Shown one piece after another: positions 27,027-33,813 of a DNA stretch of 64,000 nt. This DNA is from Podarcis liolepis. Its lineage: Eukaryota. The stretch's first letter is position 1. Each line of letters begins with the position of its first letter. Both the position numbers and the translations under genes were made by a program. Location of the stretch: the NCBI GenBank assembly GCA_965112155.1, contig OZ218105.1; one strand, written 5' to 3'. The notes below the pieces were generated by a model. The model was not told the origin of the DNA. It saw only the letters and a list, made by a program, of their open reading frames with translations, and ran no database searches.

Positions 27027-28756
27027 CAGCCAAAGCTAAAGAATAAGCGTTTTTATTTTATTTTATTTTATTTTATTTTAAGTAACTGATATAAAGTCCG
27101 CTAGTGATTTTGTATATATTGATTGATCATATGATCTTATCCTCAAGCTACACCCAATAGGCAAAACAGGATTCCCCTGTACTAGTGGAATCCAATGCTA
27201 TGCTGGAGGGAGGAGGATGTAACAATACTTTTGGCTGCTGGGATTCCAACAGCAGAAGAGGTGGAGTTGGGGGGACTTGGCCAAGTTAGCAGAATGGCAG
27301 GAAAAGAATGAAAGTTAGAATTCGATGCTTGTTCTAACAACTGAAGATAGAATAACTTTATACCTACTAAAAAGGTGCTGCTGCTTCCCTTTTCTTCATA
27401 TAAGCAAAACACTCACTGGAGTCAACCAGGAGCCAGAAAGCAGCCCCTTCCATTGCATTCCCAGCTACCATCACGAGCAGAATAGGATTCTGATGTAACT
27501 TGCAGCAAAATATTGCACACCACGAAGACTACATAAGGCCTACCAAGGAACACAGACCTTATACATCAAAAAGTGCACCATGGGCACACATATCCTTGCC
27601 CCCTTGTCTCAAGAAACATGAATGCACAAGTGGGAGTGCGAATAGAGTGCAAGTGGGAGTGCGAATAGTGGGAGTTAGCTCATACGAATAGAGTGGGTCA
27701 ACAGGATCAACTGAAGCATAGCAAAAGACTTAATAACCCTAGAAATATAGTTATAAAGCTATTGAAACAGACATGTAGGATAAAGGCACTGTGCATAATT
27801 CTTATTATACAGAAAAATGAATAACTGAAGACATCAAGTAGGTAGATTCAGTCTGCAATCCTAGCCCCATGATCTTTTTCCTGGCCACTGACACCATGGA
27901 AAGCACGGTGGATGGAATGATACCACGGGGAATGTTGCCACCAGCAATAGCAAGCAGAGGGCCCCAAACTGGGCTGTTACGGGGTGAAGTAGAATAGGAC
28001 TAGCCACAGATCTCCTGGATCTTAAGCACTCCATTCCCCTCAGAGAGGTCACCAACTGGGCCCACTAACTATGCCAGCCTGGAGCAGGCACAACAAAGAG
28101 TAATGAAAAGAACTGCCTCCTGCCATGTTCTCAGCTGGGTTGAGGATTGCTCGGCCCCTCACTAATACCTTATGATACAGTCAAGAAAATCTATATTGAG
28201 AAAAAGTTACATATCTGATAAAAATAGGGAATGCTAGTAAACATTGAAAGTGTTTCTTTTAAAAAGGTGGTTAGTGGTTAGAAGTGTAACAGAGGCTCAG
28301 TAACATCTGAAGATATTACTAAGGTCTGTATCAAGTACATTCGCATGAAAAGCCCAGGAGCTAAATTGTTAAAGAATCTGCAGGATTTGCCTCCATCCAT
28401 TTTATTTTATTACTTTCCTCATTATGGTGCAACAGAAGGCTATTAGCTTTCCCCTAATTAGCTATTAATAGATTAAATAGTCCACTAATATCCCAATAAA
28501 GAGACTAAATAGCAAGGCTGATTCCCCCCCCCCGTTTTTAAAATAAAAAATCTTGTTGATAATATTATCTCTGACAAAAATATCTCCAAGCAATTTCTGA
28601 ATGGTGCATGCAGTGGCGTAGCGTGGGGGGTGCCAGGGGTGCCGGCCGCACCGGGCGCAACATTTTTGGGGGCGCGTTTGGCCGGCCCACCTCGAGGAAG
28701 TGGGAACCTCTCCAAGGCACAGCGTGCCGTCGGTAGAGGAAAAAAGCCGCGCAGCA

Positions 28757-28848
28757 GCAAAGTCGGGAGGAGGAGGAGGTGGAGCGAGCCTGCTAATTCC
28801 TTGCAAAGTCGGGAGGAGGAGGAGGTGGAGCGAGCCTGCTAATTCCTT
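28757..28848 (+). repeat. Perfect 46-bp tandem duplication
   Basis: GCAAAGTCGGGAGGAGGAGGAGGTGGAGCGAGCCTGCTAATTCCTT twice. Confidence 0.95.
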
Positions 28849-29179
28849 GCTGGGAATTAAGCAGCTCAAAGAGGCAAAGGAAAAGAGGTGGAGCCGCTGG
28901 CCCGGAGGGGAGGAAGCTGGAAAGAGCAGCGCGCCAAGCGCACGTGACGCAAAGAGCCTGCCCAAGTGCAGGCTGAGCTCCCCGTGGCAGGGGCGGAGGG
29001 AGCCTCCCTTCCTTTTAATGGGCAAGCATTTTCACGCGGGGAATCGACAGCAAATCCTCGGGCAACTCTCGGGGAAGGGGGCATGTGGGAGAAGTGTGGA
29101 TACCTCGGTTGGTTGGAGCGCGGTGATGAGAACGCCAAGGTTGTGTCTCTGATCCTCGTTTGGGACGGCTGCATATTTA

Positions 29180-29241
29180 TCCCTGCATTGCAGGGGGGGT
29201 TGGACTCGATGACCCCCAGGGTCCCTTCTAACTCTATGATT
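29180..29241 (+). mobile_element. CR1 3' end fragment within the cargo
   Basis: CCTGCATTGCAGGGGGGGTTGGACTCGATGACCCCCAGGGTCCCTTCTAACTCTATGATT. Confidence 0.75.
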
Positions 29242-29882
29242 GGCGGGGGGGGGACTGGACTGAGAGGCTGGCCTTAGGGACAGAGGCAGATCTAGCTGCT
29301 CCAGCGCCCGGAGCGGTGCACATGCCATGGGGTGAGTGTCCCAGGGGGAGAGATGCCCATGGGGGGGTGGAGCGAGCTGTCCATGCTGGGCTGCTTCCTG
29401 GGGGGTGGGGAGCCATGCCGCTTTGCCAGCGCCCTTCTTCCTTTCCCTCTTCCTTTTAACAGCTATGGGGAGGCTCCCCCCCCCCAAGCAGCCCGGAAGC
29501 GAGGGGCAATGGCGCGACGCCGGCCCACAACTCCAAAGCCTCCCCCAGCTGTCAAAACAAAGGGGGAAGGTGGGGAAGGCCGCTGGCAAGGCGGCGCATC
29601 TCCACCCCTTCCCCTGACGGCTCGGGGTAGGCCTGGGAGTCACGGTGCGCCGAATGTCATCCCCCTCAGTGATGACACCTGGTGTGGACCGCCCCCACCG
29701 CCCCCTTCCTCTGCCCCTGCATAGGGACAGGCAGAGCCTGGGCTCCTCGGAGTTGACAAATGGAGGGGACCAGCAGCTGCCCAAAGAGGGGAAATATGAT
29801 TGACTTATTCGCAGAATCTATAGCCCTCTCTACAGCTGAATTCTCCCCACTCCCAAGAGTGGGGAGCAAAGTAATGAAAACA

Positions 29883-29927
<45 letters not shown>

Positions 29928-30247
29928 TTATTTAAGCCCTGCCTATCTGGCTGGGTTTACCCAGCCACTCTGGGTGGCTTCCAACAGAATGTTAAAGTAC
30001 AATAACCTATTAAACATTAAAAGCTTCCCTAAACAGGGCTGCCTTCTGATGTCTTCTAAAAGTCTGGTAGTTGTTCTTCTCTTTGACATCTGGTGGGAGG
30101 GCGTTCCACAGGGCAGGCGCCACCAGCAAGAAGGCCCTCTGCCTGGTTCCCTGCAACTTGGCTTCTCATGAGGGGACCGCCAGAAGGCCCTCGGAGCTGG
30201 ACCTCAGTGTCCAGGCAGAACAATGGGGGTGGAGATGCTCCTTCAGG
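29883..30247 (-). mobile_element. L2 3' end with (AAT)n tail within the composite hAT unit
   Basis: Highly similar to 19752-20076; (AAT)n at 29883-29927. Confidence 0.9.
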
Positions 30248-30385
30248 AAGAAGAACAATTTACAAAATCTTTTAAACAGGTCCATTGAAAAACTAATCAA
30301 CGTCCTATTTGTCTGGGGGGAGGTGGGGGGCAGTGCCTGCCTGCCCCTTTCAAGCACGGCTGGGAAGAGGCCTCTGCAGGCTGAG

Positions 30386-30533
30386 CAGTGGCGTAGTGTG
30401 GGGGGTGCAGGGGGGGGCCGGCCGCACCGGGCGCAACATCTGGGGGTTAGGGTTAGGGGGCGCAAATCCACGGGTTAGGGGGCGCAAATTACTTCCCTTG
30501 CCCCGGGTGCTGACAACCCACGCTACGCCACTG
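30386..30533. mobile_element. 148-bp hAT-type MITE forming the right end of the composite unit
   Basis: Left TIR CAGTGGCGTAGTGTGGG, subterminal GGGGGCGCAA and GGGTTAGGG repeats, and the right TIR. Its own left flank AGGCTGAG does not match the right TSD. Confidence 0.85.
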
Positions 30534-30829
30534 GGTGCATGTACTGCATCTTGTGCAGTCAAGTGTAAGGGAACTTTAGCTGGAGTGGACTCAGTAAATT
30601 GGCAATGTGTGGTATTAAAAGAGATTCAATGGGTAGATATGTTCTTTGAAAAGGTTATCTAGAAGCTGTTATCTAGATGCTTACAGTGGTATCAGTAAAG
30701 TCACCAAATGGACCACAGAAATAATTTTGCAAAAGATATATGAGCAAATGAATGCACTGAGGAATGCTCCCCCCCCCCGCCATTTAACTGTAATTATAAA
30801 GTCAGGGTTTTCTGAGTGCAACTGAACAC

Positions 30830-31921: not shown

Positions 31922-33813
31922 CACTGGTCAACAACAAATTTATTGTCTGCGTTTTTTCAGTTGATTTAGGACAAATCTGATGTGCTGAATCCAAAAATCA
32001 CATTGGTTTTGCTCAATCAGGTCAAGTTTTTGAGCTATGGCCACAAGTCTTTTTTTACGTTTTTGTTCACAAGTACGCTTGTGTGGAGCATTTTAGAAGA
32101 AGTTCGTGGGGGTAAAATGCCATGTCGAATAATTGTTTTGATTGGAAATGATCGTTTTAATGACAAGAAGTATTCAGGTCCGATAGTTCTGGGTGATTAT
32201 GTTGAAAAGGGATCAGTTTGAAGTCATAAAACCTCGAAATCTTCCATAAATTGGTGCGGCTGGGATCAACAGAAAGAACCGGAGCAGCCTCAAGTATCCT
32301 GATCTTCAATCAGCACGTCGTCCTGTAGCTCATTGTGATGAAATTCCAGTGCCTATCTTCGGAGAACTTCCTGACATTAGTGACAAAGATGCCTCCAGTG
32401 TTGAAGGACATGAAGAAGAAGTGGTTCTTGAAGATGATGCTCCACATCCATTTTCCCAAAAGGAGTTGAATGATCTAGTTCACGACCTCAGCTTGTCAAA
32501 GGACTCTGCCGAATTGTTGGCATCCAGATTGAAGGAAAAAAACCTCCTCTCTGACAGTGCTCGCATCAGCTTCTTCCGCAACAGGCATCAAAAGTACCTC
32601 CGTTTTTTCTCGGAAGAGAAGGACTTGGTGTACTGTGCAGATATTGCACAGCTTCTGCTCAAGCTTGGAGTGCCACAGTACGAACCCAAAGATTGGAGAC
32701 TGTTCATTGACAGCAGCAAGCAATCACTGAAATGTGTTCTGCTGCACAATGGCAACCAGTTTGCCTCTATACCCCTGGCTCACTCGAGTACACTGAAGGA
32801 GAACTATGAAGCAGTGAAGTATGTGCTGGAGAAAATTGGTTATGATCAGCATAAATGGTTTATTTGTGTTGACCTGAAGATGGTGAACTTTTTGTTGGGA
32901 CAACAGTCTGGCTTCACCAAGTACCCATGTTTTCTGTGTATGTGGGATAGGAGGGACCGTGCTCAGCATTACACGAAGAAGGACTGGCCTGTGCAGGAGG
33001 AATTGGTGCCTTGCAAAGAAAGGAACGTCATCAACAACCCTCTGGTGGACAGAGACAGAATAGTCTTTCCACCGCTGCACATCAAGCTCGGCTTAATCAA
33101 GCATTTCACCAAGGCTTTGGACAAGGATGGTGACTGCTTCACTTACTTGAGCCAGGCTTTTCCAGGATGGACCATGGAGAAGTTGAAAGCTGGCATCTTT
33201 GACGGTCCTCAGATCCGTCAGCTCATCAGCGATCCAGAGTTCAGAAACTCAATGAATGAAGTGGAACTGGAAGCATGGAAGGCATTTGTTCTGGTAGTGA
33301 AGAACTTTCTTGGCAACAATAGGGCCAGAAACTACGCAGAACTTGTCAACAACATGCTGACTGTTTTCAGAAACCTGGGCTGAAACATGAGCGTCAAGAT
33401 GCACTACCTATTTTCACATATGGACCGGTTTCCTGAGAACCTGGGTTCAGTGAGTGACGAGCAGGGGGAGAGATTCCATCAGGACATGAAAGAGATGGAG
33501 ACCAGGTATCAGGGTCTCTGGGACGCAGTCATGATGGCTGACTACTGTTGGACTCTGAAGAGAGACCTCCCTGCCGCTGAGCATTCCAGGAGTTCCAAGA
33601 AACAGAAGCTCAAGCCCTGAAGTTTGAAAAATGGTGAAGCAACATGCAATTTACGTGTACTTATGTTTATCAATGCCCACCATTCAGTTTACAGTAAACC
33701 TGACCTGATGGAGAGAAACGGATGCCATTTCCTGATTCAGCAGTGCAAAAATACCCTAAATCAGTTGTAGAAATCTAGACAACATTCAAAAAGTAAAAAA
33801 TTGTTGCCCAGTG
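31922..33813 (+). mobile_element. Chapaev3-like (CMC superfamily) DNA transposon
   Basis: Termini CACTGGTCAACAA ... TTGTTGCCCAGTG (12/13). Imperfect TIRs extend about 110 bp (shared TGATTTAGG, TGCTGAATC, ATCAGGTCA.GTTT). Encloses a transposase frame. No TSD recognisable. Confidence 0.8.
32250..33620 (+). pseudogene. DDE transposase pseudogene (Chapaev3-like), one in-frame stop and missing N-terminus
   Basis: One frame is open from 32250 (GINRKNRSSLKYPDLQSARRPVAHCDEIPVP...) through WRLFIDSS, ICVDLKM, TKYPCFLCMWD, PPLHIKLGL and GIFDGPQIR. TGA at 33381-33383 is followed in frame by NMSVKMHYLFSHMDRFPENLGSVSDEQGERFHQDM...MMADYCW to the stop at 33620. This joins ORFs 32349-33383 and 33387-33620. 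Confidence 0.88.

What the first reader, a model, noticed from the sequence alone, without database searches (positions are those of the whole stretch)
28611..30533. Pack-like composite hAT element: three transposon ends, one TSD and 1.7 kb of captured GC-rich DNA
Seen directly: a left end at 28611, a second near-identical left end at 30386, and one right end at 30533. The perfect 8-bp TSD GGTGCATG flanks the outer ends only; the inner left end is preceded by AGGCTGAG. Established: 8-bp TSDs and CAG...CTG termini are hAT hallmarks. Inference: the whole 1.9 kb moved as a unit, pairing a distant left end with the right end of a 148-bp MITE and carrying non-transposase cargo. Cargo-carrying DNA transposons are well known in plants (Pack-MULE/CACTA) but much less described in amniotes, so a lacertid family would be notable.
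Basis: partly seen in the sequence, partly recalled or inferred. Interest (0 to 1): 0.72.

Follow-up and report, generated by a model that had tools for sequence, protein, structure and literature searches.

The report
Gene-capturing jumping DNA in a lizard
This 1.9-kb stretch is one of 26 young, near-identical copies of a jumping DNA element that carries pieces copied from two separate places in a lizard genome, and it belongs to a much larger group of such elements, one of which carries a gene's first coding exon, likely moved by an enzyme that nearly matches those of newts and toads.

Summary
Confirmed and extended. The three ends and the outer 8-bp duplication are exact. The genome holds 26 copies of the whole 1.9-kb composite (0.8% apart); 24 have an exact outer TSD, while the inner AGGCTGAG is inherited (25 of 26). 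The interior is captured host DNA from two TIR-less donors: about 330 bp of a CpG island upstream of GAS2L1 (C16) and 1.39 kb of a glycine-receptor-like intron (C13, two-thirds old TE remnants), joined at a 5-bp microhomology. It is one branch of a large clan: 644 exact outer left ends; 21 of 37 sampled elements have three ends; nine different inner junctions; two more donors found, one giving the first coding exon of ZNF704 (13 copies). A 4.8-kb element with the same ends, a TSD and an open 825-aa hAT transposase exists once, is absent at its site in two other runs, and is 95-97% identical to newt and toad proteins. Best reading: Pack-hAT built by template-switch capture, with a whole MITE added later as the right end. 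Pack-hATs are known in animals, but almost all single-copy; this scale, serial capture and anatomy were not found in my searches.

The parts
28603..28610 (+). Left copy of the 8-bp target site duplication GGTGCATG
28611..28675 (+). Outer left end: 17-bp TIR plus subterminal sequence; first 70 bases identical to the left end of the autonomous element on C7
28675..29002 (+). Captured piece 1: CpG island at G000:C16:24,976,056-24,976,650, about 9 kb upstream of the GAS2L1 CH-domain exon; 280 bp of the donor (L039:1137-1416) are missing; inherited from the parent Pack family
28757..28848 (+). 46-bp tandem duplication, present in 9 of 24 aligned copies (a sub-lineage marker)
28998..29002 (+). GGGAG microhomology shared by the C16 arm and the C13 donor at the junction (one extra C follows in the element)
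28998..30385 (+). Captured piece 2: G000:C13:1,878,376-1,879,762, single copy, no TIR within 50 kb, between a CpG-island exon candidate and exon 2 of a Cys-loop receptor gene (glycine receptor alpha type by recalled motifs); 94% BLAST identity, 3.85% mean substitution distance to copies
29097..29245 (+). tRNA-derived SINE-like remnant, present at the donor (family label recalled, not tested)
29281..29719 (+). Older nested TIR element (439 bp, 10/11 TIR) with 8-bp TSD CTTAGGGA, perfect at the donor, one change in this copy; present at the donor
29884..30246 (-). 3' piece of an L2-type LINE with (AAT)n tail, present at the donor; other copies in the window at 84-86% (L2 label recalled from the C-terminal motif)
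30378..30385 (+). AGGCTGAG: last 8 donor bases, the likely target site of the inner MITE; fixed in 25 of 26 copies; donor runs on without a MITE
30386..30533 (+). Whole 148-bp MITE of the same family: inner left end (not used) and the working right end
30534..30541 (+). Right copy of the TSD GGTGCATG

Best explanation
This is a young non-autonomous hAT transposon that carries host DNA from two donor loci and has moved 20-odd times as one unit between its outer ends, likely cut and pasted by the family's own transposase and likely given its right end by a MITE that landed in the cargo after capture. Steps: (1) shown: a parent Pack family joined the left end to the C16 CpG island; (2) shown: the arm was cut back at base 392 and joined to C13 DNA at a 5-bp microhomology; inferred: by template switching during repair of a break in a parent copy; (3) inferred here, shown for sister subfamilies: a 148-bp MITE inserted in the same orientation at AGGCTGAG, supplying a full right end; (4) shown: outer left end plus MITE right end transposed together, each time making a new 8-bp TSD; (5) inferred: the 825-aa transposase whose element has the same ends does the moving in trans.
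For: 26 full copies in three independent searches (one search scored all 28 candidates: 26 copies, the donor, one 39-bp fragment). Exact outer TSD in 24 of 26, 23 distinct. Mean pairwise distance 0.83%, 24 copies. Both donors lack TIRs; C13 flank beyond AGGCTGAG is single copy. MITE-into-Pack is shown in sisters: the GGTGGGAG junction lies in a nested element absent from the C16 donor, and AGTCCCTC and GGTGGGAG forms are truncations of the longer L027 interior that shares their 280-bp deletion. Donors are empty at 4 of 4 inner-junction sites that exist in a donor (C13 AGGCTGAG, C16 AGTCCCTC and GCGCTCGC, C8 CTGTGCTA); C13 site also bridged without a MITE by contigs of runs X1 and X4. The inner MITE differs in sequence from junction to junction. 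The longer parent has only 19 bp of right end, a reason for a MITE to be needed (inference). Autonomous element: 4,801 bp, TSD CTGACCAG on both sides, same ends, PF14291 plus PF05699.
Against: No intermediate with C13 DNA running past AGGCTGAG survives, so step 3 is by analogy for this family. A 5-bp microhomology fits template switching and deletion alike. Copies are 3.85% from the assembly's donor but 0.83% from each other; many 'element' letters also appear in run X4, which shows little extra depth over the cargo, so the donor haplotype here is not the one captured and the capture cannot be dated. Two copies lack an exact TSD (L013, L018) and L016/L019 are one insertion duplicated. Transposase activity was not tested.
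Confidence: 0.6

Rival explanations
1. Hybrid made at the donor: a parent copy landed just upstream of the C13 segment, lost its right part by a microhomology deletion, a MITE landed 1.4 kb further on, and the hybrid was excised from that haplotype, which was then lost.
For: Explains an empty donor and cargo that ends exactly at a MITE; same model proposed from real-time data in Arabidopsis (PMC6379663, passages). Donors lie in or near CpG islands, where insertions could cluster; a family MITE sits 258 bp past the short cargo at the ZNF704 donor.
Against: Cannot account for the sister junctions that lie in DNA absent from the donor and shared with dispersed parents. No family end within 50 kb of the C13 donor. 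The MITE at the ZNF704 donor is not the one in the composite, whose cargo carries the empty allele of that site.
Confidence: 0.22
2. Ac-type composite insertion: the right end of a MITE at C13 and the left end of a parent copy downstream were used together during replication; re-replication copied the MITE with its upstream flank and 392 bp of the parent, and the broken ends joined by microhomology.
For: Gives in one step three ends, outer 8-bp TSD and an inner 3-4-bp microhomology junction, as in maize Ac/fAc (PMC4270019, passages); same superfamily.
Against: Needs a MITE at the donor site; 0 of 4 donor sites carry one and two other runs bridge the C13 site empty. Maize CIs are 14-24 kb and were not shown to amplify.
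Confidence: 0.1
3. One-step gap repair: after excision of a parent copy, the right side switched to an ectopic MITE at C13 through shared right-end sequence and copied through it into its flank, then joined the left arm.
For: Right ends are near-identical across 6,552 exact matches; L022 has a swapped right terminus inside an intact TSD, so ends do exchange templates.
Against: Templates would mostly be established MITEs, yet none of 4 donor sites holds one.
Confidence: 0.06
4. A native CpG island at this locus hit by two MITEs, or a segmental duplication.
For: None.
Against: 26 copies on 14 contigs start and stop at the TIRs with different flanks; donors lie on other contigs.
Confidence: 0.01

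Closest known systems
Animal Pack-TIRs (Tan et al. 2021, PMC8277862; seen: abstract, sections 7, 9, 14, passages, one supplement row)
   Same: hAT ends around host DNA with a TIR-less parental copy; microhomology at a breakpoint; multicopy cases with distinct TSDs, e.g. Pack-hAT-N8_XT carrying a 5' UTR piece.
   Different: They report 370 cases, only 4 multicopy (three frog, one alligator; the example has three copies) and 0 in their one lizard genome. Here one subfamily has 26 copies, others 13 and 15, cargo is stacked from several donors, and a whole MITE forms the right end.
Rice Pack-MULEs (PMC5861414; seen: abstract, section 23) and plant Pack-hAT/Pack-CACTA (PMC8903248, PMC6379663; passages)
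   Same: Many multicopy families, chimeric cargo, donors GC-rich and near gene 5' ends.
   Different: Vertebrate host; CpG mutation is about 10-fold raised in these copies, so they do not look unmethylated; no expression shown.
Maize Ac/fAc composite insertions (PMC4270019; passages)
   Same: Three hAT ends, outer 8-bp TSD, internal microhomology junction.
   Different: Made next to the donor from resident elements; here donors are empty and the product became a dispersed family.
hAT transposases labelled 'zinc finger MYM-type 1-like' / TTF-type in Pleurodeles waltl, Pelobates cultripes, Pelodytes ibericus
   Same: 94-97% amino-acid identity over most or all of the 825 residues.
   Different: Their element ends and derivatives were not seen; the Tip100-group label for this clade is recalled, not tested.

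Membership tests
hAT superfamily | 8-bp target site duplication | tested here: met
   24 of 26 copies exact; definition as stated in PMC11008031 (passage)
hAT superfamily | Short terminal inverted repeats (about 15 bp) | tested here: met
   17-bp perfect TIR between outer ends
hAT superfamily | Partner element with the same ends encoding a hAT transposase | tested here: met
   C7:56,298,644-56,303,444, open 825 aa, PF05699 E 7.5e-12, PF14291 E 1.2e-16
hAT superfamily | Catalytic DDE triad in register with Hermes | tested here: inconclusive
   Motifs that fit recalled hAT D, D, CxxH, W, E positions at 341-345, 409-413, 439-442, 498, 772; no PDB hit by phmmer; not folded
Pack-TIR / Pack-TYPE | Interior is host DNA with a parental copy free of the TIRs | tested here: met
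   C13 and C16 donors
Pack-TIR / Pack-TYPE | Non-autonomous (no transposase inside) | tested here: met
   5 longest-frame candidates without Pfam hit; interior fully assigned to donors
Pack-TIR / Pack-TYPE | Moved after capture (several copies, distinct TSDs) | tested here: met
   23 distinct exact TSDs
Pack-TIR / Pack-TYPE | Carries gene fragments (exons) | tested here: inconclusive
   This subfamily: intron and CpG-island DNA, no coding exon found; whether the C16 piece is promoter or 5' exon is untested. Sister subfamily L106 carries the first coding exon of ZNF704
Ac-type composite insertion | Both parent elements resident at the donor, product next to it | tested here: not met
   No family end within 50 kb of the C13 donor; site empty in the assembly and bridged empty in two runs; a lost haplotype is not excluded
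Any named Repbase/Dfam family | Match to a deposited consensus | not testable with these tools
   No repeat library is offered

The most novel reading that the evidence does not exclude
A hAT transposon that crossed between amphibians and wall lizards has set up a still-segregating, plant-like Pack system in an amniote: hundreds of multicopy elements that serially pick up CpG islands and first exons, in which the three-ended form is the birth form of each new capture (two-ended forms arising by deletion), and whose one intact transposase gene now sits behind a captured host CpG island that may serve as its promoter.
Probability: 0.35. Interest if true: 0.85.

Novelty: new variant of a known kind. 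Interest (0 to 1): 0.66.

Why it matters
How cut-and-paste transposons capture host DNA is still argued from old or plant examples. Here donors, nested intermediates, derivative families and an intact, apparently polymorphic transposase gene are in one vertebrate genome, so capture models can be tested by population sequencing and in cell assays. The clan scatters copies of CpG islands and of a first coding exon with start codon and splice donor, raw material for new promoters and chimeric transcripts, and its copy depth differs between the runs of different organisms laid here. The transposase also points to a horizontal transfer between lizards and amphibians.

Tried and rejected
Methylation escape (captured CpG islands keep copies unmethylated and mobile): CpG transitions 73 of 4,057 cells against 40 of 22,536 at other C/G sites, ratio about 10, C16 arm 5.7 (cells, not events); not supported. 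Structured RNA: 11 Rfam matches at E up to 1, all far below gathering. Coding cargo in this element: none. Host exons near the insertion: 56 of 72 long frames of the window scanned (those in the element left out), only an RT hit. Expression: no RNA holder listed for the C13 donor; no reads on the transposase in two RNA runs of organism C, 12% and 6% read, but the C7 site is empty in that organism's DNA run, so this says nothing. Searches were aimed at the wrong stretch (flank of the C7 element) and are not used. Tree of 24 copies on the cargo was star-like, no usable order. PDB sequence search with the transposase: no hit. Earlier scan notes: three look-ups, nothing. Literature: nine searches listed no paper on this family, on Pack-hATs in lizards or on this transfer; subscription papers, Repbase, Dfam and bioRxiv supplements were not seen and may hold it. 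PMC10702118 (passages) did not let me name the SINE.

Full report
Observation. The three ends and the outer TSD are exactly as described. The window lies at G000:C8:47,306,001-47,370,000 of a 1.57-Gb assembly. Host genes found near donors match wall-lizard proteins best: a GAS2L1 exon is 100% identical to the Podarcis muralis entry and a ZNF704 piece 94-95% to Podarcis raffonei and Zootoca, so a lacertid host is likely.

The element is a family. Three searches with different interior pieces each gave 26 full matches including the window. All 26 run from the outer left end to the MITE right end. Of 24 uninterrupted copies 22 have an exact 8-bp TSD; the two interrupted copies (L014, L016, each with a 6.6-kb LTR retrotransposon in the AAT repeat) also do: 24 of 26. 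L013 is shifted by two bases, L018 has none, and L016/L019 share one TSD in inverted orientation 24 kb apart, so 23 distinct TSDs. The inner AGGCTGAG is exact in 25 of 26. Mean pairwise substitution distance over the C13 cargo is 0.83%, range 0.22-2.17%: a recent burst.

Donors. each gave a 27th match that stops where the MITE begins: C13:1,878,376-1,879,762, 94% over element bases 388-1777, with no TIR in 9.9 kb or 50 kb. It lies between a CpG-island exon candidate and exon 2 of a Cys-loop channel gene (glycine receptor alpha is my recalled label). The SINE-like piece, the nested 439-bp TIR element and the L2-like piece are all at the donor, so about 950 of 1,387 bases are passengers. The donor flank beyond AGGCTGAG is single copy (40 of 308 candidates scored, the rest matching a repeat at its far end). 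The left arm matches a second TIR-less locus, L039 on C16, a CpG island (GC 0.63, CpG o/e 0.66) about 9 kb upstream of the GAS2L1 CH-domain exon. The arm lacks 280 donor bases at a GCC microhomology and joins C13 DNA at GGGAG.

Other runs. Contigs of four runs were laid on the C13 donor. Cargo-specific contigs had depth 2,056-2,260 against about 80 in the flank (X1), 496-617 against 19-26 (X6), 106-144 against 6-10 (X3), but 27-47 against 23-30 in X4. The tool warns that depth is no copy number; I read it only as a sign that the family is amplified in three organisms and little or not in the fourth. X1 and X4 bridge AGGCTGAG into the right flank with no MITE; X3 and X6 do so with fewer than 31 letters on one side.

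The clan. The outer-left-end variant occurs 644 times exactly, the right end 6,552 times. I took 40 of the first 45 listed left ends on C1 (five left out as already held or listed in other searches); 37 close with a TSD (up to one mismatch), and 21 of those have an inner left end, at six different junction words. With AGTCCCTC, CTGTGCTA and AGGCTGAG that makes nine. Interiors average GC 0.66 and CpG o/e 0.70 (37 elements, not independent). Two more donors were sought and both found: C15:6,128,604-6,129,476 for the 1.59-kb family (15 TSD-bounded copies plus the donor among 16 loci) and C8:30,152,108 for a family of 13 copies that carries the first coding exon of ZNF704 with ATG and splice donor, frame intact in 6 of 13 as translated, plus one with a single stop. 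In that family three-ended forms run on in the donor to CTGTGCTA, where the donor has no MITE, and the two-ended forms look like deletions from the cargo into the inner MITE (inference).

How the third end arises. In sister families the order is visible: L027 holds the C16 island, a nested TA-flanked element absent from the donor, and only 19 bp of right end; L028-type and L029-type elements are the same sequence cut short by a whole MITE at GGTGGGAG (inside the nested element) or AGTCCCTC. So MITEs inserted into dispersed Pack copies and became the right end. For the window's family no such intermediate survives, so this is analogy. Rival routes (hybrid at the donor, PMC6379663; composite insertion, PMC4270019; gap repair into a MITE-bearing locus) need insertions at the donor; none of four donor sites has one, but a lost haplotype is not excluded.

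The partner. A Pfam search (150 of 315 candidates scored) put an 841-codon open frame 2 kb from L027. The whole is a 4,801-bp element with a TSD and the same ends: left end, C16 island, inner 19-bp right end, then an 825-aa transposase. It is the mirror three-ended form. Only one full copy is in the assembly (6 of 6 candidates scored). Contigs of X1 and X4 join its two flanks across one target site: the insertion is absent there, so it is likely recent. Its protein is 96% identical to a Pleurodeles waltl protein (784 of 814), 94-95% to full-length Pelobates cultripes proteins and 97% over 611 residues to Pelodytes ibericus, while the GAS2L1 CH region is 74% between this lizard and P. waltl and the best other squamate hit listed is 37%. 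One control gene and no DNA-level test: horizontal transfer is likely, direction unknown.

Against a grander reading. This subfamily carries no coding exon; its copies show about tenfold CpG mutation; no expression was shown; Pack-hATs are described in animals (208 of 370 Pack-TIRs, PMC8277862 section 7).

Comparison and novelty. It works like, and passes the tests for, a Pack-hAT. In PMC8277862 only four animal cases are multicopy and the one lizard had none (supplement row; that genome had just 77 annotated DNA TEs). Rice Pack-MULEs share the bias to GC-rich, open-chromatin donors (PMC5861414 section 23). My nine searches listed nothing on this family; repeat databases could not be checked. 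Verdict: real, new variant of a known kind, interest 0.66.

Noticed in passing
G000:C7:56,298,644-56,303,444 (L170:1145-5945, minus): Sole intact transposase gene of the family, behind a captured GAS2L1-upstream CpG island; site empty in runs X1 and X4; 95-97% identical to newt and toad proteins, suggesting horizontal transfer.
   Followed up: partly
L170, run X4: Transposase contigs with 0-1 differences over 330-940 bases at depth 4-6, while flanks differ by about 3% at depth 47: a rare insertion in a pooled sample, recent exchange between species, or cross-contamination.
   Followed up: no
L106, L193-L206; donor L205:2609-3853: Sister family of 13 copies carries the first coding exon of ZNF704; L194 and L196 share nearly the same TSD (one change); L197 sits inside another MITE's TIR.
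   Followed up: partly
L032:2276-8864 and L033:2044-8666: Two copies each took a different 6.6-kb LTR retrotransposon (82% alike; one has an open 1,561-aa pol frame with RT, RNase H, integrase and a Tf2-type SH3 hit) in the same AAT repeat.
   Followed up: partly
L041-L044, L053-L059 (C20:35.8-37.5 Mb): The 714-bp sister element is repeated with identical flanks, some 1.66 kb apart: part of a tandem or satellite array; its two flanking 8-mers are inverted rather than direct.
   Followed up: no
L022 right end: The last 17 bases before the TIR are replaced by other sequence inside an intact TSD.
   Followed up: no
window 32250-33380 (+): 377-codon open frame, no Pfam hit; Atlas neighbours are unnamed arthropod-rich clusters (0.92-0.95) and, as a lead only, RAG1-like clusters (0.85); likely a Chapaev/Transib-type transposase remnant (label recalled).
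   Followed up: partly
L031:4642 and window 29768: A 13-14-base segment present in 19 of 24 copies and in all four laid runs is missing, with different edges, from the assembly's donor and from the window's sub-lineage (L001, L006, L010, L013); L005 has it but lacks the bases after.
   Followed up: no
L078:1-874: A Pack element nested in the left end of another family member, whose interior starts like the autonomous element's 5' region.
   Followed up: no
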